Source: Verrucomicrobiota bacterium (GTDB lineage Bacteria; Verrucomicrobiota; Verrucomicrobiia; Limisphaerales; UBA8199). From it: DNA of 64,000 bases. The notes beneath the pieces are model-generated. The model ran no database searches. It saw only the letters and a program-made list of their open reading frames with translations, and had not been told where the DNA came from. Shown piece by piece: positions 1 to 21,361 of the stretch; position 1 is the stretch's first letter, and the number at the start of each line of letters is the position of its first letter. The translations under genes were made by a program, and so were the position numbers. Location of the stretch: the NCBI GenBank assembly GCA_039806935.1, contig JBDHQH010000001.1:6067-70066 (forward strand), in the 5' to 3' direction.

Positions 1-521
1 TGCACACCAATGACGCGCCGGGCGCGCTGACGCGCCTGGTGGATATGGGAGTGGAGCCTTATCTGGTGGCCTCCTCGCTCGAAGCAGTGCTGGCGCAGCG
101 CCTCGTGCGCGTGCTCTGCGCCCGCTGCAAACAGGAGGATCGCTCCCCCGCCGCACGGACGTTCAAGCAACAGGCGAACATCCCGGCCAACACCGCAATT
201 TATAAATCCGTTGGCTGCCGCGAGTGCCGGCAAACCGGCTTCTTCGGCCGCCACGCCATCTTTGAATGGATGGACGCGGACAGCCAGATTCGCGAGCTGA
301 TCCTCAAACGCGCTTCGAGCGACCTGATCCGCGAAGCAGCGCGCGCCGCCGGGATGCGCGCGCTGGCCGAGGACGGCTGGCGGCTGGTCCGGCTGGGCGT
401 GACTACGGTCGAGGAGGTGTTGAGCGTGACGACCGCCAAGGAAGTGGCGCGGGCCACCGTCGCCCAAGCGGACCACGAACATCCGGCTGCCGCCGCCCCA
501 GCCAAGGCGGGAACTCATTGA
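1..521 (+). CDS. gspE: Type II secretion ATPase GspE, C-terminal fragment (5' end outside window)
   Basis: The reading frame is open to the window start (frame 3 reads [26 protein letters not shown]...). It has a GspE/PilB-type C-terminal region with the tetracysteine motif CARC...[12 protein letters not shown]. gspF follows 7 nt later. Confidence 0.9.
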
Positions 522-2249: not shown

Positions 2250-2861
2250 ATGAACGATTTGACGCAGCGAAGGAGCAGCTCCGCGTGGCGTAGCCCGCCG
2301 CCGCTTCCAGTCGAGGCGAGCCGCGCGGCACGCCGCGCCTTCACGCTGATCGAACTGATTCTGGTGATGACGCTGTTGCTGATCGCAGTATCGCTCACCG
2401 CGCCGGCCCTGGCGAATTTCTTTCGCGGACGCGCGCTGGATTCCGAGGCCCGGCGGTTGCTGGCGCTCACACGGCTGGGTCAGAGTCGCGCAGTCTCGGA
2501 GGGGGTTCCGGTCGAACTCTGGATCGCTCCTTCCGGGAATACTTTCGGTCTGGAGATCGAGCCCGCGTTCGAGCCTGAAGATCCCCGGGCGGAGATTTTC
2601 ACGCTGGATGCCGCGCTGCGCATCGAGGTGGACAACCGTGTCGCGGGCAACGCCCACCCCCGCCTGGATTTGGCCGCCTCAGCCGCCGATCCCGGCCTCA
2701 GCCGCCACCCTGGCTGGCCGCGGATACGATTCCTGCCGGACGGCGGATTTGATGAGAACAGCCCGCCGGCCTTGCGTCTTTCCGGACGGGAAGGCGGCGA
2801 ATTGTGGCTGACGCAAAGCCGCAACCACCTGAGCTATGAACTGCGCGCGCGCCCGGATTAA
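2250..2861 (+). CDS. gspH: Minor pseudopilin, GspH/FimT-like
   Basis: A roughly 30-aa leader is followed by AFTLIELILVMTLLLIAVSLTAPAL. The gene lies directly after gspG and has GspH-like size. Confidence 0.65.
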   Translation: MNDLTQRRSSSAWRSPPPLPVEASRAARRAFTLIELILVMTLLLIAVSLTAPALANFFRGRALDSEARRLLALTRLGQSRAVSEGVPVELWIAPSGNTFGLEIEPAFEPEDPRAEIFTLDAALRIEVDNRVAGNAHPRLDLAASAADPGLSRHPGWPRIRFLPDGGFDENSPPALRLSGREGGELWLTQSRNHLSYELRARPD

Positions 2862-3270
2862 CCGCTCTCTCCAGGGGGCGTTTACGCTGGCCGAAGTCAT
2901 GGCGGCGCTGGTGTTTATGGCCATTGTCATCCCGGTGGCGATTGAAGCCCTGAGCATCGCGGGCCGGAGCGGCGAGGTGGCCGCCCTCAAAAACCAGGCG
3001 GCCCTGGTGGCCGATCAGGTGCTCAACGAGAGCCTGGTCACAACGAACTGGGAGCAGACGGCGCGAAGCGGAATCACCCGGCAGGGTTTCCGCGAGTTTC
3101 GCTGGACTTTGCGCAACGAGCTGTGGAACGGCGATCCCGCCCAGAGCGAACTCCGCCAACTTACGGCGGAAGTCGCGTTTCAAGCCCAGGGCCGCGATTA
3201 TTCAGTCGAGTTGAGCACTCTGGCGCTGAGCCCCTCGTTGTTCGGACAAACCAATTCCGCCGCATGGTAG
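2836..3270 (+). CDS. gspI: Minor pseudopilin, GspI-like
   Basis: N-terminal QGAFTLAEVMAALVFMAIVIPVAIEAL prepilin-type helix, small size (144 aa) and position in the gsp order. Confidence 0.6.
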   Translation: MNCARARINRSLQGAFTLAEVMAALVFMAIVIPVAIEALSIAGRSGEVAALKNQAALVADQVLNESLVTTNWEQTARSGITRQGFREFRWTLRNELWNGDPAQSELRQLTAEVAFQAQGRDYSVELSTLALSPSLFGQTNSAAW

Positions 3271-3977
3271 TCGAGGTTCTCCCCACTCACCGGCGCTCTC
3301 GCGCGGGCTTCACCCTCATCGAGATGCTGCTGGCGCTGGCCATTTCGGCGATTGTGCTGGCGGCGATCGGCGGCGTATTTTTCGGCGCGTTCCGTTTGCG
3401 CGAGCGCACCACGGCTTTGCTGGATCAAACCGCGCCGCTCTGCCAGGCGCTCGCCCGGGTGCGGCGCGACCTGCGCGGCACGCTGCCGCCCTCCGGGTAT
3501 CTCGCCGGCGACTTCAAATGCGCGCCGCTGGGAGGCGGCGGCGCGAATCAGAGCTTTTCGTTGCAGTTTTCCACTACCACCGGCCAGCCCCAAGCCGGCG
3601 TGGCCGGTTGCGACATTCAAGAGATCATCTATGAACTGCGGGACAGCGCGGCCGGCGGTTTCCGCGGCGGCAAGGATTTGATCCGCAGCGTGGTTCGCAA
3701 CGTTCTGACCGCGGGAATCCTCGAGACCGAGGATCAGCTTGTGCTCGGGCGCGTTGAGAGTCTGGAGTTTGCCTGTTATGACGGCTTTCAATGGCGGGAT
3801 ACCTGGGACACCAGCCTGAGCGATACCAACCTGCCTTCGGCAGTGCGGCTGCGCCTGCGGTTAAGCGCGCCGGATCTTTCCCGAGGGATCGACCCCGGCG
3901 AACCGATTGAACTAGTTGTGCCGCTGCTCTGCCAGTCGCGGACCAACCATCTCTCCGCCGGGGAGGGAAGCGAATGA
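3264..3977 (+). CDS. gspJ: Minor pseudopilin, GspJ-like
   Basis: Start chosen at ATG 3264 (ATGGTAG overlap with the gspI stop) inside track ORF 3123..3977. It has the RAGFTLIEMLLALAISAIVLAAIGGVF prepilin helix. Confidence 0.6.
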   Translation: MVVEVLPTHRRSRAGFTLIEMLLALAISAIVLAAIGGVFFGAFRLRERTTALLDQTAPLCQALARVRRDLRGTLPPSGYLAGDFKCAPLGGGGANQSFSLQFSTTTGQPQAGVAGCDIQEIIYELRDSAAGGFRGGKDLIRSVVRNVLTAGILETEDQLVLGRVESLEFACYDGFQWRDTWDTSLSDTNLPSAVRLRLRLSAPDLSRGIDPGEPIELVVPLLCQSRTNHLSAGEGSE

Positions 3978-5341
3978 TTCCGTCGCGAGCAACCGAGCGC
4001 GGTTCGACGTTCATCGTGGTGCTCTGGGTCAGCCTGGGTTTGGTGAGCCTGGCGCTCTATTTCGCCAACTCGATGATGTTTGAATTGCGCGCCTCGGACA
4101 ACCGGGTCAGCGGCCTGGCCGCCGATCAAGCGATCGAGGGAGCCATCCAATACGTCAGTTACGCGCTGACCGCGTACGAAACCAACGGCGTGATGCCCGA
4201 CCCTGCCACCTACTTGAATGAGGCGGTGCCGGTGGGGCGTTCGCATTTCTGGTTGATCGGGCGGGAGACCAATGCCAGCGCCGCTTCGGTGACGTTTGGT
4301 CTCGTCGATGAGGCCTCGAAGATAAATTTAAACACGGCCACGAGCAACATGCTGGTGTACCTGCCCCGCATGAGCCTCGATCTGGTCCAAGCCATCCTCG
4401 ATTGGCGCGATACCAACGGCGGCAGCGGCGCCTTTGACACCTGGTACGGCATGCGCAAGCCCGCGTATCAGAACAAATCGGCCCCTTTCGAGAGCATCGA
4501 GGAGTTGCGGTTGCTCTACGCGGCGGATGATTACACCCTGGTCGGCGAGGATCGCAATCTGAACGGCGTGCTCGATCCCGATGAGAGCCGAGGGCAGCCG
4601 GTGGTTTCTTTCGAGGAAGCGCTGCTTGAGGACGTCACGGTCTTTAGCCGGGAACCCAACACCTACAGCAACGGCACACCCCGGATCAATATTCGGAACC
4701 TCACCGCCGACGGTCCCTTGGCGCAGTTGCTGGAATCCGCACTGGGCCAGGGCCGGGCGCAGGCGGTGCTGGAGCGTCTCCAACTTACGGGCGCTTCCGG
4801 GCCACGCCCGCCTGGGGGGGGCGGCGGCGCGACTGTCAGCTTCACCAGTCCCCTGCATTTGTATCGCATCAGCGGCATGACCCCCGAGGAATTTGCGCTG
4901 ATCGGTCGCGCCCTTACCACGGTCAATGGCGACACGATCGAAGGCCGGGTGAATGTGAATACCGCCCCGGCAACCGTACTGGCCTGTTTGCCGGGATTGG
5001 TGGACGCTCCCGATTTGGCGCAGACGCTCACGCAGTACCGGCTGGCCAATCCCGGCCTGCTGGGTTCAGTCGCCTGGGTGGCTGAAGCTCTGGGTTCGGC
5101 CAACAGCACCGCCATCGAGGCCCTCCAGGCGACAGATTGCATCACCACCGAGAGCTATCAGTTTACGGCCGACATCGCCGCGCTGGGCCCGAATGGCCGC
5201 GGCTACCGGCGCGTGCGAGTTGTGCTCGACACCGCCACCGGACAACCCCGAGTCGTGTACCGGCAGGATCTCACCCATCTCGGTTGGGCTTTGGGCGGCG
5301 AGATTCGTAAAACCTGGCTGGCAGCCAACCCTCTCCCATGA
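3974..5341 (+). CDS. gspK: Minor pseudopilin GspK
   Basis: ATGA overlap with gspJ. It has an N-terminal hydrophobic helix (RGSTFIVVLWVSLGLVSLALYF), the GspK-typical DEASKINLNTAT motif and helix-hairpin-helix-like VNVNTAPATVLACLPGL. Confidence 0.75.
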   Translation: MIPSRATERGSTFIVVLWVSLGLVSLALYFANSMMFELRASDNRVSGLAADQAIEGAIQYVSYALTAYETNGVMPDPATYLNEAVPVGRSHFWLIGRETNASAASVTFGLVDEASKINLNTATSNMLVYLPRMSLDLVQAILDWRDTNGGSGAFDTWYGMRKPAYQNKSAPFESIEELRLLYAADDYTLVGEDRNLNGVLDPDESRGQPVVSFEEALLEDVTVFSREPNTYSNGTPRINIRNLTADGPLAQLLESALGQGRAQAVLERLQLTGASGPRPPGGGGGATVSFTSPLHLYRISGMTPEEFALIGRALTTVNGDTIEGRVNVNTAPATVLACLPGLVDAPDLAQTLTQYRLANPGLLGSVAWVAEALGSANSTAIEALQATDCITTESYQFTADIAALGPNGRGYRRVRVVLDTATGQPRVVYRQDLTHLGWALGGEIRKTWLAANPLP

Positions 5342-6783
5342 TCGATTCCTCCAAAAAATTATCTTTCAAGCGCTCCGCGCCGAGCAGGCTCCTGGGGCTC
5401 TCGCTGGATGGAACGCGCGTCGAGGCGGTGGTGCTCCAGCGGGTCAACGGATCGCTCACCGCCGGACCGCCGTCCACCTTCGCGCTCACGCTGGATCCGC
5501 TCACCGCCGATCCGCAACTCGTCGGGCGTGAACTGCGCAACCATTTGGATGCCGCCGGCATCCGGGAACGCGTCTGCGCGGTCGCGCTGCCCCTGAACTG
5601 GGCGCTCACCGCCGCCGTGGAGATCCCCGCGCTGCCCGAGGGAGATATTCCCGGCTTCCTGCTATTGGAGGCGGAGCGCGGTTTTCATTGCGACGCGGCA
5701 ACGCTGCGGGTTGAACCTTCCCGGTTTCAGACGCCCGGCGGCCAAAAGCACGCGCTGCTGGTGGGAATCCCCCAAACGCAATTGCAGACGCTCGCGCAAA
5801 TCATCCGCGCGGCCCGGCTCAAACCCGTAAGCTTTGGACTCGGCCTCGCCGCCCTGCAACCTCCGCCCCCGCCGGAACACGAAGGCGCCCTGGCCTTGCG
5901 CATCGGCGAGACCCGACTGGGCTTGCAGATTGCCTGCGGGGGGGGGATCGCCGCGTTGCGCGTAGTCGAGAGCGCGCTGGCCGCGGAAGGCCCCAAACGA
6001 AACGTGGATTCCGACCTGGTGACTCGTGAAATCCGCATCACCTTGGGGCAGATCCCCCCGGACTTGCGAGAGACCATCCGGCGAGTCCGGATCTTTGGCC
6101 CTCGGGATCTCGCCCAGCAATTGGCGGACGACCTGGAACTGCGCCTGGATTCCCTCAGTTTGAAAATCGAGCCGGTGACGCACTACGAAGCCAACGAGTT
6201 TGGCTTGAGCATCGCCAGCGAGGTCCCGATTACCACGGCCTGCAGCCTCGCCGCGCGCCGGCTGGCCAACCAGGGCACGTTCGAGTTTCTGCCGCCGCAA
6301 ATCAGCGCCTGGCGGCAACTGACCAATCGCTACGCCTCGGGCCGGTTGCGCACGGCGGGGATCGCCGCGGCGGGGATCGCGGCGTTGGTTCTCGGCGCGT
6401 TGTTGATTCAGCAAATTCAGCTTTGGCGCCTACAAGCTCAATGGAGCGAAATCGCCTCTAAAACCAAGGAACTCGAGCAAATCGAGGAGCAGGTGCGCCG
6501 CTACCGTGCCTGGTACGACGATTCGCTGCGGGTGATGAGCATCCTGCGGCAACTCACCCTGGCCTTTCCCGAGGAGGGCTCGGTCTGGGCGCGCACCATC
6601 GAGATTCGCGATGCCGGCGCGGTGGCTTGCACCGGGTTGGCGCGTGACCATCAATCGCTGCTGAAAACCCATGAGCAGCTCCGCGCCGCCAACGGGGTGG
6701 CCGAGTTGAAGATCAGCCAGATTCGCGGCAAAACTCCGGAACAATTCACCTTTGATTTCGTCTGGCGGGGAGGCCGGCCGTGA
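5338..6783 (+). CDS. gspL: GspL-like assembly protein (cytoplasmic actin-like domain, one TM, periplasmic domain)
   Basis: ATGA overlap with gspK. A roughly 330-aa N-terminal soluble domain is followed by a single TM (AGIAAAGIAALVLGALLIQQI) and a roughly 120-aa C-terminal domain. Architecture and position match GspL or a PilM-PilN fusion. No strong motif was recognised. Confidence 0.55.
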   Translation: MIDSSKKLSFKRSAPSRLLGLSLDGTRVEAVVLQRVNGSLTAGPPSTFALTLDPLTADPQLVGRELRNHLDAAGIRERVCAVALPLNWALTAAVEIPALPEGDIPGFLLLEAERGFHCDAATLRVEPSRFQTPGGQKHALLVGIPQTQLQTLAQIIRAARLKPVSFGLGLAALQPPPPPEHEGALALRIGETRLGLQIACGGGIAALRVVESALAAEGPKRNVDSDLVTREIRITLGQIPPDLRETIRRVRIFGPRDLAQQLADDLELRLDSLSLKIEPVTHYEANEFGLSIASEVPITTACSLAARRLANQGTFEFLPPQISAWRQLTNRYASGRLRTAGIAAAGIAALVLGALLIQQIQLWRLQAQWSEIASKTKELEQIEEQVRRYRAWYDDSLRVMSILRQLTLAFPEEGSVWARTIEIRDAGAVACTGLARDHQSLLKTHEQLRAANGVAELKISQIRGKTPEQFTFDFVWRGGRP

Positions 6784-7319
6784 AGCTCAAGAATCGTCAA
6801 CAAATCCTGCTCCTCGTGGTGGGCGCCGCCATCGCGCTTCTGCTGCTGGACCGGGTGGTGCTCTCCACTCTCGGCGGCGCCTGGCGACAGCGCTCGGCCC
6901 GGATTCAGGAACTTCGGAAAAAAGTGGCGAACGGAAAATGGATGATCCAGCGCGAAATGAGCCTGCGGACACGCTGGGATTTCATGCAAACAAACGCCCT
7001 GCCCTCGAACATCTCGGTCGCCGAACAGCAACTGCTCAAAGCTTTCGATGGTTGGGCGCAGGAGAGCCGCGTAACCATTCTCTCCATCGGCTTGCAACGC
7101 AAACGTGAGGCGGACGATTACTTGAGCCTGGATTGCCGGCTGGAAGCCTCGGGCAGCCTGGGCGCCATCTCACAATTCTTATATGCGATCGAACGGAATC
7201 CGATGGCGCTGCTCCTGCAGAATGTCGAGTTGAGCGCGCGGGACAACGACGGCCAACAACTGGCGCTCGGGTTGCAGATTAGCGGCCTGGTGTTGGGAGC
7301 TTCCCAGGAACAAAAATGA
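6780..7319 (+). CDS. GspM/PilO-like bitopic assembly protein
   Basis: GTGA overlap with the upstream gene. It has an N-terminal TM (QQILLLVVGAAIALLLLDRVVL) plus a roughly 140-aa periplasmic domain. The call is by position and architecture only. Confidence 0.45.
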   Translation: MKLKNRQQILLLVVGAAIALLLLDRVVLSTLGGAWRQRSARIQELRKKVANGKWMIQREMSLRTRWDFMQTNALPSNISVAEQQLLKAFDGWAQESRVTILSIGLQRKREADDYLSLDCRLEASGSLGAISQFLYAIERNPMALLLQNVELSARDNDGQQLALGLQISGLVLGASQEQK

Positions 7320-8050
7320 AACGATCCTTGCTCTTTCGATTGACTCCTCCAATCGCGGCCCCCTCCGTCGCGCGGGCCGGGCGTTGGTGCTGGCTCGCTC
7401 TGCTGGCCCCGGTGCTGTGCTCCGGCGCGGATTCACCAGGCTTCGCCGCCTTCAAGATAATCGGAGATCGAAACATTTTCAGCCCGCGCCGGATCGCCTC
7501 GGTCAGCGAGACGCCGCGCGCGACCCGGCGCGCGCCGCGGGTGGACACGCTCACCCTCGTCGGCACGATGGAGTACGATGAAGGACCAGTGGCCTTCTTT
7601 GACGGATCCAGCAGCCAGTATCGCAAGGCGGTGCGGCCCGGTGAGAGTATTGCCGGCTTCCAATTAAGCTGGGTGCGTCCCGCCTCGGTGGTGTTAAGCC
7701 TCGGAACAAATCACTTTGAAGTGGCGATGGGAGGACAGCTTCGCCGGGAAGAGGATAGCGAATGGCGCTTGGCCGCCACGCCGGAATTGCCTGCCCTGGC
7801 GCATTCAAACCGCGCTGGCCCGGGAGCGGGCCCGGGGCCTGCAATCCTGCAACCGGCTCCCCCTGCGCCGGGCGGCGCCAACGCCAGTCCCCAAGTCGTC
7901 ATTTTGGATCCCGAAGGCGAGGAGCTGGCTGGGTTTCCGTCCGAAATGACGCCGACCAATGGCCTGCCCGAGGCCAATGCAGGCGAAACCGACCCCGTTC
8001 TTTTGCGCCTGCGCCAACGAGCCGCCGCCGAGCGCGGCGACCGAGAATAA
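7316..8050 (+). CDS. Secreted/anchored protein, possibly GspC/PilP-like secretin-interacting component
   Basis: ATGA overlap with the upstream gene and an N-terminal hydrophobic signal or anchor. A central beta-rich segment (LTLVGTMEYDEGPVAFFDGSSSQYRKAVRPGESIAGFQLSWVRPASVVLS) resembles the PilP/GspC HR-domain pattern. The tail is Pro/Gly-rich. Confidence 0.35.
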   Translation: MKRSLLFRLTPPIAAPSVARAGRWCWLALLAPVLCSGADSPGFAAFKIIGDRNIFSPRRIASVSETPRATRRAPRVDTLTLVGTMEYDEGPVAFFDGSSSQYRKAVRPGESIAGFQLSWVRPASVVLSLGTNHFEVAMGGQLRREEDSEWRLAATPELPALAHSNRAGPGAGPGPAILQPAPPAPGGANASPQVVILDPEGEELAGFPSEMTPTNGLPEANAGETDPVLLRLRQRAAAERGDRE

Positions 8051-8053
8051 TCA

Positions 8054-9352
8054 ATGATCCACCGATTCCAATCCATGAAACCCAGACTGATGATTCCCCT
8101 GGCGCTCCTCGCCGTGGCGGGAGCCTGGCTGCTCCGGGCCCAGACCTCCAATCCCCCGCCGTCTGAAGCCCTTGCCGCTACCAACTCTCACCCGGCGGCC
8201 GCCAGCGCCAGCTCCGCGCCGGCCGCCCCAATCGCGCCCACACCCCCGGCCCCGCCCCCCCCCGCCAGCGAACCCCCTTCCCCACCGCCGGCCGCCCCGC
8301 TCAATCCCGACGAACTGCGCCTCAACTTCCGGGGCGCGCCACTGGACACCGTGCTCAATTATCTGAGCGAGGCGGCGGGGTTCATCATCGTGCTCGAGGC
8401 GCAACCCCGCGGCAAAGTGGATGTGCTCAGCAACCAGCCGCTCACGCGCGAGGAAGCGGTGGACTTGCTGAACACCGTGCTCGCCAAGAACGGCTACGCC
8501 GCCATCCGCCGAGGGCGCACCTTGACCATCGTCAATAAGGATGAGGCCAAAACGAAAGCCATTCCGGTGAAGATGGGCAGCGATCCGGACCAAATCCCCG
8601 ACAATGACGAGTTTGTAACTCAAATCATCCCGGTTCGCTTCGTTGAGGCGGGCCAACTCATCAAGGATTTGCAGCCGCTGGTGTCTCCGCAAACCGCCCT
8701 GACCGCGAACGAATCGGGAAACTCGATTGTGATCACGGATACCCAGGCCAACATCCGCCGGGTCGCCGAAATCGTGCGGGCCATTGATGCCGGGGCCGAG
8801 GATGTCACCGAAGTCCGGGTGTTTCACTTGCAATACTCGGATCCCAACGAGATGTCCGATCTGCTGGCCAATCTCTTCCCGGACGACAGCCGCACCGGCA
8901 GCTCTCAGTCGCCCGTTCAATTCAGCAGCTTCCGCAGCCGCTTTTTCGGAGGTTTCGGGGGCAGTCCCGGCTCCAGCAGCGCGGCCAATAACCAAAACGC
9001 CCGCGTGAAAAAACGGAATCGCGTCCTGGCGGTGCCCGATCCCCGCACTTCCTCGGTGGTGGTGACCGCCTCCAAGGATCTCATCGATCAAATCGCGGCG
9101 GTGGTTACGGAACTGGACTCGAACCCCGCCCGCAAACAAACGGTGCGGGTCTTCACGCTGCAAAATGCCTCGCCAGAGGAGGCGCGCCAGGTGCTGCAGG
9201 ATATGTTTGAAAAAAACACCACGGCGAACAATCGCAACACCACGCAAAACGTTTTGCAAAACCGCTCGCAACAGCAGAGCCAGACCTCCGCCAGCGCGGC
9301 CAGCCGGTCGCGCTCCGGCTCGAGTTCGCGCGGCCGCACCGTTGGCCGTTAA
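8054..9352 (+). CDS. gspD: T2SS secretin, N-terminal half only (signal peptide, Pro-rich linker, N0-N1-N2-like domains, Ser/Gln-rich tail)
   Basis: N0-like LNFRGAPLDTVLNYLSEAAGFIIVLEA...RTLTIVNKDEA, then two repeats of the secretin N-domain type (VFHLQYSDPNEMSDLLANLF and VFTLQNASPEEARQVLQDMF). The ORF ends at a TAA stop without any secretin pore domain. An alternative start is ATG 8075 (MKPRLMIPLALLAVAGAWLLRAQ). Confidence 0.75.
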   Translation: MIHRFQSMKPRLMIPLALLAVAGAWLLRAQTSNPPPSEALAATNSHPAAASASSAPAAPIAPTPPAPPPPASEPPSPPPAAPLNPDELRLNFRGAPLDTVLNYLSEAAGFIIVLEAQPRGKVDVLSNQPLTREEAVDLLNTVLAKNGYAAIRRGRTLTIVNKDEAKTKAIPVKMGSDPDQIPDNDEFVTQIIPVRFVEAGQLIKDLQPLVSPQTALTANESGNSIVITDTQANIRRVAEIVRAIDAGAEDVTEVRVFHLQYSDPNEMSDLLANLFPDDSRTGSSQSPVQFSSFRSRFFGGFGGSPGSSSAANNQNARVKKRNRVLAVPDPRTSSVVVTASKDLIDQIAAVVTELDSNPARKQTVRVFTLQNASPEEARQVLQDMFEKNTTANNRNTTQNVLQNRSQQQSQTSASAASRSRSGSSSRGRTVGR

Positions 9353-9364
9353 CCCCGCCCCGCC

Positions 9365-10612
9365 ATGTTTTCCATGAATACCTCTCTTTCGCACTCTAAA
9401 ACCCGGGCGCGCCGCATCGGCGCTGTGGCGCTGATGGCGTTGCTCGGCGCGCTGGCCGCCCAAGCCCAGTTCCCCGGCGGGCCGGGGGGCTTCTCCGGCT
9501 CCCGCTCCTCCTCCTCCTCAAGAAACACCAGCGGCAGCCGCCAATACCCCAATAATACCACGGTCGGTGACGCGGTGATTTCCATCGACCCCGAGACCCG
9601 CAGCCTCATCGTCATCGCCGACGATGAAACGAGCCAGTACATTTCCCAGGTGGTTTCCAATCTGGACCGGCCGAAGCCGCAGGTGCTGATCAAGGTCGTG
9701 TTCCTCGAGGTGCAGCACACGGACGCCAAGGATATCGGGTTGGAGGGTGGCTGGTCCAAATGGATCGGCAACTCGACCACCGGCGCGGTCGCGCAATCGT
9801 TCGGCATTTCCGGCCTCAACACCGCCGCCTCCAGCAATAATCTCCTCAACGTGTTCGGTCAGCCGATCCAGGGATTCTCCGGCACCCCTTCCGGGGGAGG
9901 CTTGTACCAAATCTTCGGCCGGGATTACCAGGTCACCCTGCGCGCCATCGCCGCCGCCGGAAAGGCCAAGGTGCTCTCGCGTCCGTCGATCGTCGCCCGC
10001 AATAATCAGCCAGCCACCATCACCGTGGGCCAATCGGTGCCGCTGATCACCGCCGTACGTTACGACAACTACGGAAACGCCATCAATTCGGTCACTTACC
10101 AGGACGTGGGCATCATCCTTGAGGTCACCCCCTTCATCACCTCCGAGGGCATGGTCGAGATGATTGTTTCGCCGGAAACCTCCGATCTGGTCGCTGACCG
10201 CAGCCAGTGGGTTCCTATTTCGACCGGCCCCAACGGTTCTGTGAGCGCGCCGCTCATCAATTCCCGATCCGCCGATACAGTGGTGGTCACCCCCAACGCC
10301 CAGACCGTCATCATCGGCGGACTGATGCAGAACTCCAAAGCCAATTCCGAAAGCAAAATTCCCTTTTTAGGAGACATTCCGCTGTTGGGTAATTTGTTTA
10401 AGCGCCGCACTTCGAGTGACCAGAAAACCGAACTGCTCATCTTCCTCACGCCGTACATTATTGAGGCGCCTGAAGAGCTGGCGCATTTGTCCGATCGCGA
10501 GCGGGAAAAATCAGACGCGCCCAAACAATTCGAGGAGCGGGAATTGCGAAAATTTCTGGACGGCCTGCCCATGAAGGAGCCTGAGGCGCCGGAGGGAACG
10601 CCTCCGCGATAG
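9365..10612 (+). CDS. gspD: T2SS secretin, C-terminal half (own signal peptide, N3-like domain, secretin pore domain)
   Basis: Signal peptide RRIGAVALMALLGALAAQAQF. N3-like ISIDPETRSLIVIADDETSQYISQVVSNLDRPKPQVLIKVVFLEV. Secretin-domain motifs VLSRPSIVARNNQPATITVGQSVP, YQDVGIILEVTPFITSEG and IPFLGDIPLLGNLFKRRTSSDQKTELLIFLTPYII. Confidence 0.85.
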   Translation: MFSMNTSLSHSKTRARRIGAVALMALLGALAAQAQFPGGPGGFSGSRSSSSSRNTSGSRQYPNNTTVGDAVISIDPETRSLIVIADDETSQYISQVVSNLDRPKPQVLIKVVFLEVQHTDAKDIGLEGGWSKWIGNSTTGAVAQSFGISGLNTAASSNNLLNVFGQPIQGFSGTPSGGGLYQIFGRDYQVTLRAIAAAGKAKVLSRPSIVARNNQPATITVGQSVPLITAVRYDNYGNAINSVTYQDVGIILEVTPFITSEGMVEMIVSPETSDLVADRSQWVPISTGPNGSVSAPLINSRSADTVVVTPNAQTVIIGGLMQNSKANSESKIPFLGDIPLLGNLFKRRTSSDQKTELLIFLTPYIIEAPEELAHLSDREREKSDAPKQFEERELRKFLDGLPMKEPEAPEGTPPR

Positions 10613-18385: not shown

Positions 18386-21361
18386 ATGAGCACAAATACG
18401 ACTTTGCCCCGCCGCCCGAAGTCGGCGGCTGATATCAGCGCGCGGGCTCGCTTCAACCAGATCCTCCTGCCCTGGATCATCTCGGGGATTTGCCTGCTCG
18501 CGTTCCTCCTGACCTTGAATCCGTGGCTGACACTGAGCAGCGCCGGGCAAGGCAATCTGGCGCAGACGGCCCGCCTTTCGGGTTGGGCATGGCAACCGGA
18601 GGTTTTCGGCCCGGTGTATTGGCTGGCGACCGCCCCCCTTCGCTGGCTGCCGGTCACGGTCATTCCGCTCGCGCTCAATGTGTTTTCGGCCTTGTGCGCC
18701 AGCCTCACGCTGGCGCTTCTGGTCCGCTCGGTGGCCCTGCTGCCGCACAACCGCACCGAGCAACAGCGCCTTCGCGAGCGAAGCCCGAGCGGCGCGCTCT
18801 CGATTCCCCTGGCGTGGCTGCCGCCGGTTTTCGCAGCGGTGTTGTGCGCGTTTCAGCTCTCCTTCTGGGAACAGGCCACCATCGGATCGAGCGAGATGCT
18901 CGATCTGCTTCTGTTTGCCTATATCACACGGTGCTTGTTGGAGTTCCGGGCGTATCGCCAGGATCGCTGGGTGTTGCAAGCCCTGGCGGTTTATGGCGCC
19001 GCCACCGCCAACAACTGGGCGATGGTCGGCTTTGCCCCGATTTTTCTGGCCGCTTTGCTGTGGATGAAGGGACTGCAGTGGAACCGCCGGTTTTTGGCCA
19101 CCGCCGCTCTGGCCGGTTTGGCGGGATTATCCTTTTATCTGCTGCTGCCGCTGGCGGACGTCCTGGGCGGGCGAACTTCGGCCACTTTCTGGCAGATCCT
19201 GAAAATGAACCTGGGCTTTCAAAAGCAGTTCGTGCTGCAACTGCCTTTCAACAAGGGCGCCTTGTTCAACAGCGATCGTCCAGTCTGGGTGCTGGGATTG
19301 GCGGCGCTGTTGCCTCTGCTGACAATCGCGATCCGCTGGCCCGCGTATTCCGGAGATACCAGCAAACTGGGCAATGCGCTCAACACGTTCAGCTTCCATT
19401 TCTTTCATGGCGCCCTGCTGCTGCTCTGCGTCTGGGTCGCGTTTGATCCGGAGAAATTCAGCGCCCGCTATCTGCTGCCCGGAGTTCCGCTGCTCACTTT
19501 CTATTATCTCGGCGCTTTGGCGGCGGGCTATTTTGCCGGATATTTCCTGCTGGTTTTCGGGGCCAAACCCGTCGGGCGGCCACGACCGGTCGCGGCTTAC
19601 GTTCGCGCGCTGGATCGGTTGGTGGTCATGCTGCTCTTCGCGCTGGCGGCCCTTGCGCCTCTCGGATTGCTCATCCGGAACTTGCCCCAGATCCGGTTTG
19701 CCAACAGCTCCCTGGTCCGCCAGTACGCAAACCTCGAGTCGGCTGCGCTCCCTCGCTCGGGTGGAATTATATTGAGCGACGATCCTCGCCGCCTGGTCAT
19801 TCAGCAGGCGGCGCTCGTCGCCGAACGCCGGGATCGAGATTACGCGTTTGTCGATACCACTTCCCTGTACTATCCGGATTACCAAAGATATCTGGCGCGA
19901 ACGTATCCGCGGCGCTGGACGAACTCCATCCCGCCAACGCGAAAGATCGCGCTCGAGCAAGTGGAGGTGCTGGCCCAGATCGAAACCCTCTCCAAAGCGA
20001 ACGACCTGTTTTACCTGCACCCGAGCTTCGGATTTTTCTTCGAGCTGTTTTATCCCGAGCCGCACGGCATGATCGTCCAACTGCGCCGCTATGCTGACAG
20101 CAGTCTGCTGCCGCCGCCGCCCGATCCCGCTTTGGTGGCGAGCAACGAAACTTTCTGGTCACAAACCGCGTCGCCGTTGTTGGCGCGGCTGGAACAGGGC
20201 ATCACCCCCCCTGCGAACAAAACCAGCCTGGGCGGCAGACTGGCTGGCAAACTTCACCTGAAACGGGAACCGAACCGGTTCGCCGTTCCGCTGGCGGCAT
20301 ATTTTTCACGATCTTTGGTCTATTGGGGGGCGCAAGCGCAACGCTTGGGATTGACCGCCGCGGCAGGCGGCCATTTCGGGCAGGCGCTCCGGCTCAACCC
20401 AGGCAATGTGGTGGCCCAAGTCAATCTCTCGTTCAACGAACACCTTCGCACCGGGCAGGAAACGCCCCTCGAGGTGACCAAATCAATTGAGGATCAATTT
20501 GGGGCTTACCGCAGTTGGGATCAGGTGATCGGCGCCAATGGGCCGTTCGACGAGCCCACTTTCTGCTATCAACAGGGGGGAGCGTTTTTCCAGGGCCACA
20601 ACTATCGGCAGGCTGCCCAGCAATTCGCCCGCGTGGCGGAGCTGATCCCCGACCATCTGGCGTCCAGATTGTTGCTGGCGCGGGTTCACATCGCCACGGG
20701 ATCGCCCCATGAAGCGCTCCAGATCCTCACCAACCTGCATCGTCGGACGGAGTTCTTCGGCCTCTCCGAAACCAACGCGCCGGCGGTGCTCGAGGTCGAG
20801 GCCTCCGCTTATTTGGCGACCCAGAACTCCGCCGCCGCCCAGCGGGTGGTGGACGCCGCCCTGGCGGGCGCCCGGGACAAAATGCCCGTGCTGATGCATT
20901 CGGCTCAGGTTTTCCTGAACTACGGGCAATACCCGGCCGCGCTGCAAATGCTGAACCGTATCTTAAAAGAGGATCCCCGGGATCGGATCGCGCTTTTCTT
21001 TAAGGGCTTCGCTTGCGCGCAAACGGGTGATTACGCGGCGGCAATTCCGCCGCTGAGCCAATTGCTGGAACTGGAGACCACCTGGAATGAACTCCGCTAC
21101 AAAGCCCTGCTCAGCCGCGCCAACGCTTATTTGCAACGGGACCAGCTTGATGAGGCCCGGGCGGACTACGCCTCGATTGAAAAGGAACATGCATCCGATT
21201 TGGCGGCGCTTCTGGGGCTGGGCGAGATCGCCTATCGGCAGCACCACACCAATGCCGCACTCGAGCATTACCGGCTTTTCCTCGCCGGCGCGCCGGCCAA
21301 CACCGTGGAAACCAGCAACGTGTTGACTCGAGTCAAAGAGTTGGAACGCGCGGCGCCGTAA
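18386..21361 (+). CDS. Large membrane protein with a polytopic GT-C/DUF2723-like N-terminal half and a C-terminal TPR-repeat domain
   Basis: 991 aa. About 11 predicted TMs occupy the first roughly 430 aa. The C-terminal roughly 350 aa contain TPR-like repeats (YRQAAQQFARVAELIPD..., YPAALQMLNRILKEDPRD, YAAAIPPLSQLLELE, LDEARADYASIEKEHASD). Confidence 0.6.
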   Translation: MSTNTTLPRRPKSAADISARARFNQILLPWIISGICLLAFLLTLNPWLTLSSAGQGNLAQTARLSGWAWQPEVFGPVYWLATAPLRWLPVTVIPLALNVFSALCASLTLALLVRSVALLPHNRTEQQRLRERSPSGALSIPLAWLPPVFAAVLCAFQLSFWEQATIGSSEMLDLLLFAYITRCLLEFRAYRQDRWVLQALAVYGAATANNWAMVGFAPIFLAALLWMKGLQWNRRFLATAALAGLAGLSFYLLLPLADVLGGRTSATFWQILKMNLGFQKQFVLQLPFNKGALFNSDRPVWVLGLAALLPLLTIAIRWPAYSGDTSKLGNALNTFSFHFFHGALLLLCVWVAFDPEKFSARYLLPGVPLLTFYYLGALAAGYFAGYFLLVFGAKPVGRPRPVAAYVRALDRLVVMLLFALAALAPLGLLIRNLPQIRFANSSLVRQYANLESAALPRSGGIILSDDPRRLVIQQAALVAERRDRDYAFVDTTSLYYPDYQRYLARTYPRRWTNSIPPTRKIALEQVEVLAQIETLSKANDLFYLHPSFGFFFELFYPEPHGMIVQLRRYADSSLLPPPPDPALVASNETFWSQTASPLLARLEQGITPPANKTSLGGRLAGKLHLKREPNRFAVPLAAYFSRSLVYWGAQAQRLGLTAAAGGHFGQALRLNPGNVVAQVNLSFNEHLRTGQETPLEVTKSIEDQFGAYRSWDQVIGANGPFDEPTFCYQQGGAFFQGHNYRQAAQQFARVAELIPDHLASRLLLARVHIATGSPHEALQILTNLHRRTEFFGLSETNAPAVLEVEASAYLATQNSAAAQRVVDAALAGARDKMPVLMHSAQVFLNYGQYPAALQMLNRILKEDPRDRIALFFKGFACAQTGDYAAAIPPLSQLLELETTWNELRYKALLSRANAYLQRDQLDEARADYASIEKEHASDLAALLGLGEIAYRQHHTNAALEHYRLFLAGAPANTVETSNVLTRVKELERAAP

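What the first reader, a model, noticed from the sequence alone, without database searches (positions are those of the whole stretch)
8054..10612. Type II secretion secretin split into two separately exported polypeptides
The N0-N1-N2-type periplasmic domains (8054-9352) and the N3-plus-pore domain (9365-10612) lie in two ORFs separated by a TAA stop and 12 nt. The second ORF has its own credible signal peptide (RRIGAVALMALLGALAAQAQF). The first ends in a Ser/Gln-rich low-complexity tail and the second begins with a Ser-rich linker after its signal peptide. Canonical GspD proteins carry all of these domains on one chain, because the N-domains gate the periplasmic vestibule and contact GspC. 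A natural split implies non-covalent assembly of the vestibule onto the pore.
Basis: partly seen in the sequence, partly recalled or inferred. Interest (0 to 1): 0.6.

Follow-up and report, generated by a model that had tools for sequence, protein, structure and literature searches.

The report
Naturally split type II secretin
In this bacterium and in at least 77 related Verrucomicrobiota species, the outer-membrane pore protein of a protein-secretion machine is made from two separately exported proteins, cut in the middle of a small folded domain that the pieces probably rebuild together.

Summary
Two adjacent same-strand ORFs (8054-9352 and 9365-10612), separated by TAA plus 12 nt, together make one GspD-type secretin. 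They close a complete gspEFGHIJKLM operon.

It is not an error or a pseudogene. The junction is identical in three independent assemblies. Seventy-seven of 78 related species-level genomes keep a two-gene layout, using all three stop codons, spacers of -4 to 80 nt and both frame relations. All 108 complete homologues of the second ORF have their own signal-peptide-like N-terminus.

The cut lies inside N3, not between N2 and N3. ORF1 ends with N3 strand 1 and helix 1 (Pfam Secretin_N positions 1-26). ORF2 starts, after its signal peptide, with strand 2, strand 3 and helix 2 (positions 30-69).

Single-chain relatives (at most about 44-48% identity) have a long low-complexity loop at exactly this site. 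The same kind of loop was cut again in other lineages, giving a three-piece secretin and a family split in N2.

The most likely mechanism is that the two halves rebuild N3 in trans. This is inferred, and two AlphaFold2 runs did not show it.

No description of a bacterial split secretin was found. The closest precedent is the multi-piece GspD of the mitochondrial T2SS. I rate it a new variant of a known kind, of moderately high interest.

The parts
39..521 (+). 3' end of gspE (secretion ATPase), cut by the window start
   Evidence: Pfam T2SSE, profile positions 257-369 of 370, 84 bits
528..1769 (+). gspF (inner-membrane platform)
   Evidence: Pfam T2SSF, two stretches, 197 bits
1669..5341 (+). 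Pseudopilin genes: gspG (1669-2232), gspH (2250-2861), gspI (2836-3270), gspJ (3123-3977), gspK (3974-5341)
   Evidence: Pfam T2SSG, GspH, T2SSI (20.6 bits, below its cut-off), T2SSJ, T2SSK, each with an N_methyl motif
5338..6783 (+). gspL-like gene, assigned by position only
   Evidence: No Pfam hit. It overlaps its neighbours' stop and start codons. A homologue sits at the same place in L074. The assignment is an inference.
6780..7319 (+). gspM/pilO-like gene
   Evidence: NCBIfam T2SS_GspM_XpsM, E 1.6e-6, below cut-off. Pfam PilO, 21.8 bits against a cut-off of 22
7316..8050 (+). Unknown 244-aa protein directly upstream of gspD-N, in the position where GspC or PilP would be expected
   Evidence: No Pfam or PDB sequence hit. 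A 220-aa gene sits in the same position before the N-piece in L074, where the protein is visibly similar, and next to P0310, where only position and size are known. The role is inferred.
8054..9352 (+). gspD-N, the N-terminal piece of the secretin. The database gene call starts at M8, nt 8075.
   Evidence: TIGR02517 positions 1-295, 191.7 bits.
8075..8143 (+). Signal peptide of gspD-N (MKPRLMIPLALLAVAGAWLLRA), followed by a Pro/Ala-rich linker to nt 8308
   Evidence: Read from the sequence. Homologues have equivalent N-termini.
8315..8548 (+). N0 domain (aa 88-165)
   Evidence: Pfam type_II_gspD_N0, 46.8 bits. AF2 pLDDT 79-91.
8612..8797 (+). N1 domain (aa 187-248)
   Evidence: Pfam Secretin_N best stretch 189-246. 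The AF2 secondary structure is strand-helix-strand-strand-helix.
8801..9127 (+). N2 domain (aa 250-358), with a roughly 50-aa low-complexity loop between helix 1 and strand 2
9134..9214 (+). N3a, the first half of the N3 domain (strand 1 and helix 1, KQTVRVFTLQNASPEEARQVLQDMF)
   Evidence: Pfam Secretin_N profile 1-26, 24.2 bits. Aligns to V. cholerae GspD residues about 245-265. Conservation 0.66 across 120 homologues.
9215..9352 (+). Polar low-complexity tail with a conserved NNRN...LQNRS.QQ motif, then the TAA stop (9350-9352)
   Evidence: conservation 0.63 over aa 388-410
9353..9364 (+). 12-nt intergenic spacer (CCCCGCCCCGCC)
   Evidence: Identical in three independent assemblies.
9365..10612 (+). 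gspD-C, the C-terminal piece of the secretin
   Evidence: TIGR02517 positions 270-599, 256 bits.
9365..9469 (+). Signal peptide of gspD-C (aa 1-35, predicted cleavage AQA|QF). There is no lipobox Cys.
   Evidence: Read from the sequence. All 108 complete homologues have a basic n-region and a hydrophobic h-region, while the sequence itself is poorly conserved (0.29).
9470..9559 (+). Gly/Ser-rich linker of the mature N-terminus (QFPGGPGGFSGSRSSSSS...)
9560..9676 (+). N3b, the second half of the N3 domain (strand 2, strand 3, helix 2: VGDAVISIDPETRSLIVIADDETSQYISQVVSNLDRP)
   Evidence: Pfam Secretin_N profile 30-69, 27.2 bits. Aligns to V. cholerae GspD from residue 274. AF2 pLDDT 85-92. Conservation 0.85.
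9677..10474 (+). Secretin pore domain
   Evidence: Pfam Secretin, 165 bits. The best PDB fold matches are PulD, ExeD and GspD.
10475..10612 (+). C-terminal helical segment (possibly S-domain-like) and stop codon
   Evidence: AF2 predicts two helices. The function was not tested.

Best explanation
gspD-N and gspD-C are the two halves of one type II secretion secretin, produced by an ancient gene fission.

The cut fell in the long, disordered, low-complexity loop between helix 1 and strand 2 of the N3 domain. The downstream half acquired a start codon and a Sec signal peptide.

Both genes sit at the end of the gsp operon and are almost certainly co-transcribed. Each product is exported to the periplasm on its own.

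The C-piece (half of N3, the pore domain and the C-terminal helices) forms the outer-membrane channel. The N-piece (N0, N1, N2 and half of N3) attaches to it by supplying the missing strand 1 and helix 1 of N3. The N3 ring is thus rebuilt from two chains, and the N0-N2 vestibule is tethered under the pore, where N0 can reach the inner-membrane platform. The two new low-complexity ends remain as flexible tails where the ancestral loop used to be.

Shown here: the split itself, its conservation, the separate signal peptides, the exact position of the cut, the matching of the two halves to one domain model, the single-chain relatives with a loop at that site, and the recurrence of the same type of cut.

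Inferred: co-transcription, physical association of the two products, reconstitution of N3 in trans, and any selective advantage.
For: 1. The gene pair is real. The junction sequence is identical in three assemblies from different sequencing runs, with 1 mismatch in about 5.3 kb.

2. The split is conserved. All 120 best homologues of ORF2 are 344-496 aa. Those of ORF1 are 341-482 aa, apart from one of 583 aa. All are at 49-76% identity, and many pairs share a contig. In 77 of 78 species-level genomes the N3a-bearing gene ends at a stop codon (TAA 36, TGA 28, TAG 13). The spacer is -4 to 80 nt, and the frame is the same in 29 and different in 48. This excludes read-through and frameshifting.

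3. Export is separate. All 108 complete ORF2 homologues have K/R residues followed by a hydrophobic segment (maximum Kyte-Doolittle value at least 2.35). In 102 of them an AxA-type site follows. The sequence of this region is poorly conserved (0.29), but its character is kept.

4. Position of the cut. ORF1 aa 326-387 aligns to V. cholerae GspD residues 204-265, and ORF2 aa 61-389 to residues 274-609. In Pfam Secretin_N, the ORF1 tail matches profile positions 1-26 (24.2 bits) and the ORF2 head matches 30-69 (27.2 bits). Joined in silico they give one stretch over 1-69 at 51.8 bits, against a cut-off of 28.2.

5. N3a is not decaying. Its conservation (0.66) is like that of the N2 loop (0.66) and somewhat below N2b (0.75), and the core positions V.VF.L...VLQD.F are nearly invariant.

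6. Ancestral state. Single-chain relatives (P0280 of 708 aa, P0336 of 717 aa, P0313 of 826 aa) are colinear with ORF1 followed by ORF2. They have a 26-95-aa G/S/T/N/Q-rich loop exactly at the cut.

7. Recurrence. L074 and about 15 further protein clusters have a third piece, with its own signal peptide, cut in the equivalent loop of another N domain. P0310 is cut in the N2 loop and follows a 329-aa gene with N0 and Secretin_N in a gsp operon.

8. Context. The pair closes a complete gsp operon, and no second secretin is present in the window.
Against: No result shows that the two proteins bind each other.

Two AlphaFold2 models of artificial ORF1+ORF2 fusions folded N3b with confidence (pLDDT 85-92). 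They left N3a strand 1 unformed (pLDDT about 40) and extended helix 1 into a long helix running into the tail. The alignments were unpaired, so this may be a limitation of the method, but it gives no support.

Covariation between N3a and N3b is only slightly above the control blocks. The one clean pair (ORF1 position 365 Y/F with ORF2 position 85 T) reflects about 2 events on the tree.

SignalP could not be run. The signal-peptide call rests on a heuristic of my own.

No expression or proteomic data were examined.
Confidence: 0.68

Rival explanations
1. The two proteins work together, but N3 is not rebuilt. The N-piece associates with the pore through other contacts, such as ring stacking of N2 on N3b, the conserved tail helix, or sticky Gly/Phe-rich ends. 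Alternatively it forms a separate periplasmic ring attached to the inner-membrane platform. N3a would then have been repurposed.
For: AF2 models keep N3b well folded without N3a and turn helix 1 plus the conserved tail into one long helix. The tail motif NNRN...LQNRS is as conserved as N3a (0.63 against 0.66). Of 120 N-pieces, 84 end with FG or GF, and 98 of 120 C-pieces start with QF, so the new ends are themselves under constraint.
Against: The two halves match complementary, non-overlapping parts of one domain profile, and their scores add up exactly. The hydrophobic core pattern of N3a is conserved like that of the intact paralogous N2. By general knowledge of this fold, a strand-strand-helix fragment is not expected to be stable alone, although this was not tested here. 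The AF2 runs used unpaired alignments.
Confidence: 0.22
2. A single full-length secretin is made by translational recoding across the stop codon (read-through or frameshift). The split would then be only apparent.
For: In this window the two ORFs are in the same frame, separated by one TAA and four sense codons.
Against: Among 77 relatives the frames differ in 48. All three stop codons are used. Spacers range from -4 to 80 nt, several with further in-frame stops. A hydrophobic signal peptide in the middle of a periplasmic loop would not be conserved in all homologues if it were read through.
Confidence: 0.02
3. The split is a sequencing or assembly error, or a recent pseudogenising nonsense mutation in a normal gspD.
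For: A single stop codon in a low-complexity region is a typical place for such artefacts.
Against: The junction is identical in three independent assemblies. The two-gene form is conserved across relatives that share only 49-76% identity, with both halves intact. The downstream signal peptide is conserved.
Confidence: 0.01
4. The N-piece acts independently of this pore, for example as a periplasmic adaptor for another system. The C-piece would be a minimal secretin that functions alone, like short secretins such as phage pIV or RcpA.
For: Short secretins with few N domains do exist (PDB hits 7ofh pIV and 8odn RcpA).
Against: The two genes are adjacent in 77 of 78 genomes. They lie inside one gsp operon, and no other secretin is present in the window. 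The C-piece starts with half a domain, not a whole one.
Confidence: 0.05

Closest known systems
Canonical single-chain T2SS secretin GspD/PulD/XcpQ (TIGR02517; PDB 5wq8, 5wq7, 6hcg, 5wln)
   Same: It has the same domain order (N0, N1, N2, N3, secretin, C-terminal helices) and the same gsp operon context. The best sequence and fold matches are to these proteins.
   Different: Here the chain is cut inside N3 and the second half has its own signal peptide. Neither half reaches the TIGR02517 cut-off of 351 bits (191.7 and 256 bits). The N2 and N3 loops between helix 1 and strand 2 are long and of low complexity.
Single-chain secretins of more distant relatives (P0280, P0336, P0313; at most about 44-48% identity to ORF2)
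   Same: They are colinear with ORF1 followed by ORF2, and they have a long low-complexity loop at the site of the cut.
   Different: They are one polypeptide of 708-826 aa, with no internal signal peptide. The maximum hydrophobicity in the P0280 loop is -0.13.
Mitochondrial T2SS-derived system (miT2SS) of Naegleria and other protists: GspD, GspDL, GspDN1-3 (PMC8134430)
   Same: GspD is described there as split into multiple polypeptides. [quoted passage not shown] That is the same kind of half-domain fragment as seen here.
   Different: It is eukaryotic and nuclear-encoded, lacks N0 and GspC, and its pore-forming GspD lacks N3 and part of the C-domain. The authors could not map the fragments onto N1-N3. 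No evolutionary link to the Verrucomicrobiota split was tested here.
TadB/TadC fission of the inner-membrane platform in Tad/Epd systems (PMC6668835)
   Same: It is a conserved gene fission within the same superfamily of machines, giving two adjacent genes.
   Different: It affects a different component, and the cut lies between two duplicated whole domains rather than inside a domain. That survey reports no fission of the secretin.

Membership tests
T2SS secretin GspD (TIGR02517 / Pfam Secretin + Secretin_N + GspD N0) | C-terminal secretin pore domain (PF00263) | tested here: met
   ORF2 aa 195-367, 165 bits against a cut-off of 27.5
T2SS secretin GspD (TIGR02517 / Pfam Secretin + Secretin_N + GspD N0) | N0 domain at the N-terminus | tested here: met
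   ORF1 aa 90-154, PF21305, 46.8 bits against a cut-off of 27
T2SS secretin GspD (TIGR02517 / Pfam Secretin + Secretin_N + GspD N0) | Three Secretin_N repeats (N1, N2, N3) between N0 and the pore | tested here: met
   N1 and N2 are complete in ORF1. N3 is present only as two complementary halves, profile positions 1-26 and 30-69, which together score 51.8 bits.
T2SS secretin GspD (TIGR02517 / Pfam Secretin + Secretin_N + GspD N0) | All domains on one polypeptide scoring above the equivalog cut-off (351.35 bits) | tested here: not met
   ORF1 scores 191.7 bits (positions 1-295) and ORF2 256 bits (positions 270-599). Each is below the cut-off, and a stop codon and a signal peptide lie between them.
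T2SS secretin GspD (TIGR02517 / Pfam Secretin + Secretin_N + GspD N0) | Encoded with gspE, gspF, the pseudopilin genes gspG-K and gspL/M | tested here: met
   T2SSE, T2SSF, T2SSG, GspH, T2SSI (weak), T2SSJ, T2SSK and GspM-like genes lie upstream on the same strand.
T2SS secretin GspD (TIGR02517 / Pfam Secretin + Secretin_N + GspD N0) | Forms a multimeric (about 15-mer) outer-membrane channel that secretes folded proteins | not testable with these tools
   This needs biochemistry or cryo-EM.
Type IV pilus secretin PilQ (TIGR02515) | Score above the family cut-off, AMIN domains, and a pilMNOPQ context | tested here: not met
   Scores are 45 and 169 bits against a cut-off of 284. No AMIN domain was found. 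The neighbours are T2SS pseudopilin genes gspG-K.
Split GspD of the mitochondrial miT2SS (GspD + GspDN1-3) | Secretin encoded as several polypeptides, including half Secretin_N fragments | tested here: met
   There are two polypeptides, each carrying half of one Secretin_N domain. The feature is as described in PMC8134430. This is a resemblance in architecture only.
Split GspD of the mitochondrial miT2SS (GspD + GspDN1-3) | Common descent with the eukaryotic Gsp proteins, absence of N0 and GspC | not tested
   No eukaryotic sequences were compared. N0 is present here, so the architectures differ.

The most novel reading that the evidence does not exclude
Secretin N domains with long loops between helix 1 and strand 2 behave as natural split-protein modules. 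In a large Verrucomicrobiota clade the periplasmic vestibule (N0-N2) would be a detachable subunit that docks onto the pre-assembled pore by fragment complementation of N3. That would allow stepwise assembly across the cell wall, or reversible coupling of the outer-membrane pore to the inner-membrane platform. The same solution arose repeatedly in bacteria (two-piece, three-piece and N2-split forms) and independently, or even ancestrally, in the mitochondrial T2SS.
Probability: 0.15. Interest if true: 0.8.

Novelty: new variant of a known kind. Interest (0 to 1): 0.6.

Why it matters
Secretins are the shared outer-membrane gates of type II and type III secretion, type IV pili and filamentous phage export. 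In every solved structure matched here they are single chains.

According to papers cited here (PMC8134430, PMC8563730), N3 is needed for pore assembly and is thought to pass opening signals from the periplasmic domains to the gate.

A family in which N3 is naturally made of two chains, conserved across dozens of species-level genomes (77 of the 78 checked), would do three things:
- It would show that a covalent link between the vestibule and the pore is dispensable.
- It would give an experimental handle to separate pore assembly from vestibule docking and from signal transmission, for example by expressing the halves separately, fusing them or swapping them.
- It would provide a bacterial counterpart to the puzzling half-domain GspDN proteins of the mitochondrial T2SS.

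It also matters for annotation. Equivalog models such as TIGR02517 miss both halves, so T2SS detection in Verrucomicrobiota genomes may under-call the secretin.

Tried and rejected
1. AlphaFold2 on artificial fusions. Two constructs were run: ORF1 86-432 + ORF2 36-415, and ORF1 86-412 + ORF2 56-415. The alignments were unpaired. Mean pLDDT was 66.7 and 69.3. N3a did not fold onto N3b, so the result is inconclusive.

It accepts only exact window or search-hit sequences. A mini-construct alignment was badly aligned by MAFFT and was not used.

3. Mutual information between N3a and N3b across 79 gene pairs was slightly above control blocks (mean 0.152 against 0.077-0.116). The best pair changes only about twice on a tree, so it is not independent evidence.

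4. Read-through or frameshift was considered because the window's ORFs are in frame. It was rejected on the frame and stop-codon statistics.

5. PilQ was considered because the neighbours resemble PilO and PilP. It was rejected on scores and on the pseudopilin context.

6. The upstream 244-aa gene was searched against Pfam and PDB sequences and gave nothing.

7. Rfam on the whole window gave no hit.

8. The taxonomy of the window and of the single-chain relatives could not be obtained from cluster look-ups. Placement in Verrucomicrobiota rests on the titles of the related genome records, some of which are obviously mislabelled bins.

9. Five literature searches found no description of a bacterial split secretin. 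The library does not cover subscription journals.
Full report
**Observation**

The window carries two adjacent ORFs on the + strand: 8054-9352 (432 aa) and 9365-10612 (415 aa). They are separated by a TAA stop and 12 nt. They happen to be in the same frame.

ORF1 contains a GspD N0 domain and three Secretin_N stretches. It matches the GspD equivalog model TIGR02517 over positions 1-295 of 600. ORF2 contains a partial Secretin_N (profile 29-69) and a full Secretin pore domain. It matches TIGR02517 over positions 270-599.

ORF2 begins with a basic segment, a hydrophobic segment and AQA|QF. This looks like a Sec signal peptide, with no lipobox cysteine.

**Context**

The pair closes a complete type II secretion operon on the same strand:
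- gspE (3' end at 39-521)
- gspF
- the pseudopilin genes gspG, H, I, J, K
- a gspL-like gene with no family hit
- a gspM/pilO-like gene
- an unknown 244-aa gene in the position where GspC or PilP would be expected
- the two secretin genes, followed by a histidine kinase gene

There is no other secretin in the 64 kb window and no Rfam match.

**Is it an artefact?**

No. The identical ORF2 protein occurs on ten contigs. Three independent assemblies from different sequencing runs carry the identical junction, with one mismatch in about 5.3 kb.

The 120 best database homologues of ORF2 are all 344-496 aa. Those of ORF1 are 341-482 aa, apart from one of 583 aa, and contain only N0 and Secretin_N. 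Identities are 49-76%. Many ORF1-type and ORF2-type proteins come from contigs of the same length, which suggests shared contigs.

A scan of one genome per species found at least 544 genomes with a relative of ORF2. The best 80 loci were fetched, and all are Verrucomicrobiota-type bins (subdivision 3, Pedosphaera, Limisphaerales). Some have evidently wrong names.

In 77 of the 78 loci where both genes are visible, the upstream gene ends at a stop codon (TAA 36, TGA 28, TAG 13). The spacer is -4 to 80 nt (median 25). The downstream gene is in the same frame in 29 cases and in another frame in 48, close to the one-third expected at random. The remaining locus has an 809-nt insertion between the genes. 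This pattern excludes sequencing error, recent pseudogenisation and programmed read-through or frameshifting.

**Separate export**

All 108 ORF2 homologues with a complete N-terminus have K/R residues followed by a strongly hydrophobic stretch. In 102 of them an AxA-type motif follows, typically ...AQAQ|F(P)GG.

The sequence of this region is the least conserved part of the protein (0.29). Its physical character is kept, as expected of a working signal peptide. The equivalent loop of the single-chain relative P0280 has no hydrophobic segment. SignalP itself was not available.

**Where the cut lies**

Alignment to V. cholerae GspD (5wq8) puts ORF1 aa 326-387 on residues 204-265. That covers the second half of N2 plus strand 1 and helix 1 of N3. 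ORF2 aa 61-389 falls on residues 274-609, which covers strands 2 and 3 and helix 2 of N3 plus the pore.

A direct Pfam test makes the same point:
- The ORF1 C-terminal 76 aa match Secretin_N profile positions 1-26 (24.2 bits, below the cut-off).
- The mature ORF2 N-terminal 72 aa match positions 30-69 (27.2 bits, below the cut-off).
- The two joined in silico match positions 1-69 in one stretch at 51.8 bits.

The cut is therefore inside N3, in the loop between helix 1 and strand 2.

**Ancestral state**

A full HMMER search of 1.84 billion cluster representatives shows roughly the top 40 representatives, down to about 40% identity, to be of the short, split type. Single-chain proteins of 700-930 aa appear at about 44-48% identity or lower.

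Three of these are colinear with ORF1 followed by ORF2. For example, ORF1 88-385 aligns to P0336 50-352, and ORF2 67-394 aligns to P0336 398-701. They carry a 26-95-aa Gly/Ser/Thr/Asn/Gln-rich loop exactly at the cut.

The fission therefore inserted a stop, a start and a signal peptide into a long disordered loop. The ORF1 tail and the ORF2 linker are the remains of that loop.

**Conservation of the fragments**

Across 120 homologues, the conservation values (fraction of sequences with the consensus residue) are:

| Region | Conservation |
|---|---|
| N0 | 0.84 |
| N1 | 0.86 |
| N2b | 0.75 |
| N3a | 0.66 |
| Tail motif NNRN...LQNRS.QQ | 0.63 |
| N3b | 0.85 |

The hydrophobic core positions of N3a are nearly invariant. 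N3a is thus under purifying selection and is not a decaying remnant.

The new ends are also constrained. Of 120 N-pieces, 84 end with FG or GF within the last six residues, although the window's own N-piece does not. Of 120 C-pieces, 98 start their mature part with QF.

**Recurrence**

In locus L074 (Pedosphaera sp.) the secretin is in three pieces:
- 318 aa: signal peptide, N0, N1, a half domain and a Gly/Phe-rich tail
- 309 aa: signal peptide, Gly-rich linker, the other half domain, a full N domain, N3a and tail
- 441 aa: signal peptide, linker, N3b and the pore

The middle piece has about 15 database relatives of 266-309 aa, each with its own signal peptide. The unsplit counterparts are N-pieces of 500-540 aa, whose extra N domain has a long Gly-rich loop at that position.

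A further family (P0310, 588 aa) starts with a signal peptide and the second half of N2. It follows a 329-aa gene with N0 and Secretin_N in a gsp operon.

The loop between helix 1 and strand 2 of these N domains is thus a repeated site of fission.

**Mechanism**

The best-supported reading is that both products are exported separately and that N3 is rebuilt from the two chains. This would tether the N0-N2 vestibule to the pore. The reading is an inference from four observations:
- The two halves are complementary.
- N3a is conserved.
- The two genes are strictly adjacent.
- This fold is generally understood not to be stable as a strand-strand-helix fragment.

It is not shown. Two AlphaFold2 runs on artificial fusions gave confident N0, N1, N2, N3b and pore. 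They left N3a strand 1 unformed and extended helix 1 into the tail.

Covariation between N3a and N3b is slightly above controls but is not phylogenetically independent.

The main rival is that the N-piece binds by other contacts and N3a has another role. I give it about 0.2.

The fold of the model best matches PulD, ExeD and GspD structures.

**Comparison with what is known**

By domains and context this is a GspD-type T2SS secretin. It fails the one defining feature of being a single chain that reaches the equivalog cut-off.

Five full-text searches found no description of a split bacterial secretin. The large survey of type IV filament systems reports fission only for TadB/TadC.

The closest precedent is the mitochondrial T2SS-derived system. 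There GspD is split into several polypeptides, and GspDN2 and GspDN3 correspond to the C- and N-terminal halves of a Secretin_N domain (PMC8134430). That system lacks N0 and GspC, and no relationship with it was tested here.

For phage pIV, the N3 domain is described as a three-stranded sheet packed against two helices, with a disordered loop pointing into the channel (PMC8563730). Whether that is the same loop was not checked.

**Verdict**

This is a real, conserved and repeatedly evolved split of a T2SS secretin inside its N3 domain. It is a new variant of a known kind, with an inferred fragment-complementation mechanism that can be tested directly.

Noticed in passing
L074:4861-8065 (Pedosphaera sp. 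Baikal-deep-G226, SIBF01000016.1): A three-piece secretin of 318, 309 and 441 aa. Each piece has its own signal peptide, and both cuts lie in the loop between helix 1 and strand 2 of an N domain. The middle piece has about 15 database relatives of 266-309 aa.
   Followed up: partly
P0310 and its contig (JGI sample 3300056388; no DNA available): A different split family. A 329-aa gene with N0 and Secretin_N is followed, after 95 nt, by a 588-aa protein that starts with a signal peptide and the second half of N2, then a complete N3 and the pore. Both lie in a gsp operon.
   Followed up: partly
Proteins P0286, P0343, P0388, P0381, P0360 and others: Giant predicted proteins of 1.5-5.5 thousand residues with many matched stretches and a secretin domain at the extreme C-terminus. 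They are 31-37% identical to ORF2.
   Followed up: no
L066, between the two secretin genes (about 2768-3578): An 809-nt GC-rich insertion with what look by eye like inverted-repeat segments separates the two halves in this one genome. It may be a small mobile element.
   Followed up: no
window 9215-9349 and 9470-9559; homologues: The new termini are constrained. The N-piece tail has a conserved NNRN...LQNRS.QQ motif and usually ends in GGF or FGQ. The mature C-piece usually starts with QF(P)GG. The window's own N-piece ends in RTVGR, without Phe.
   Followed up: partly
window 7316-8050: A 244-aa protein with no Pfam or PDB sequence match. A gene of similar size (220 aa) lies directly upstream of the N-piece in the two other contexts examined (L074 and P0310). 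It probably stands in for GspC or PilP.
   Followed up: partly
window 5338-6783: A 481-aa protein in the gspL position with no family hit. A homologue sits at the same place in L074.
   Followed up: no
window 18386-21361: A 991-aa protein combining a TMEM260-like O-mannosyltransferase N-terminal domain with many TPR repeats. It is unrelated to the finding.
   Followed up: no
record titles of L014, L017, L022, L029, L033 and others: Several genome bins carrying this Verrucomicrobiota-type locus are labelled Bifidobacterium, Akkermansia muciniphila, Limnocylindrales, Haliangiales or Acidoferrum. These are probably mislabelled or contaminated bins.
   Followed up: no
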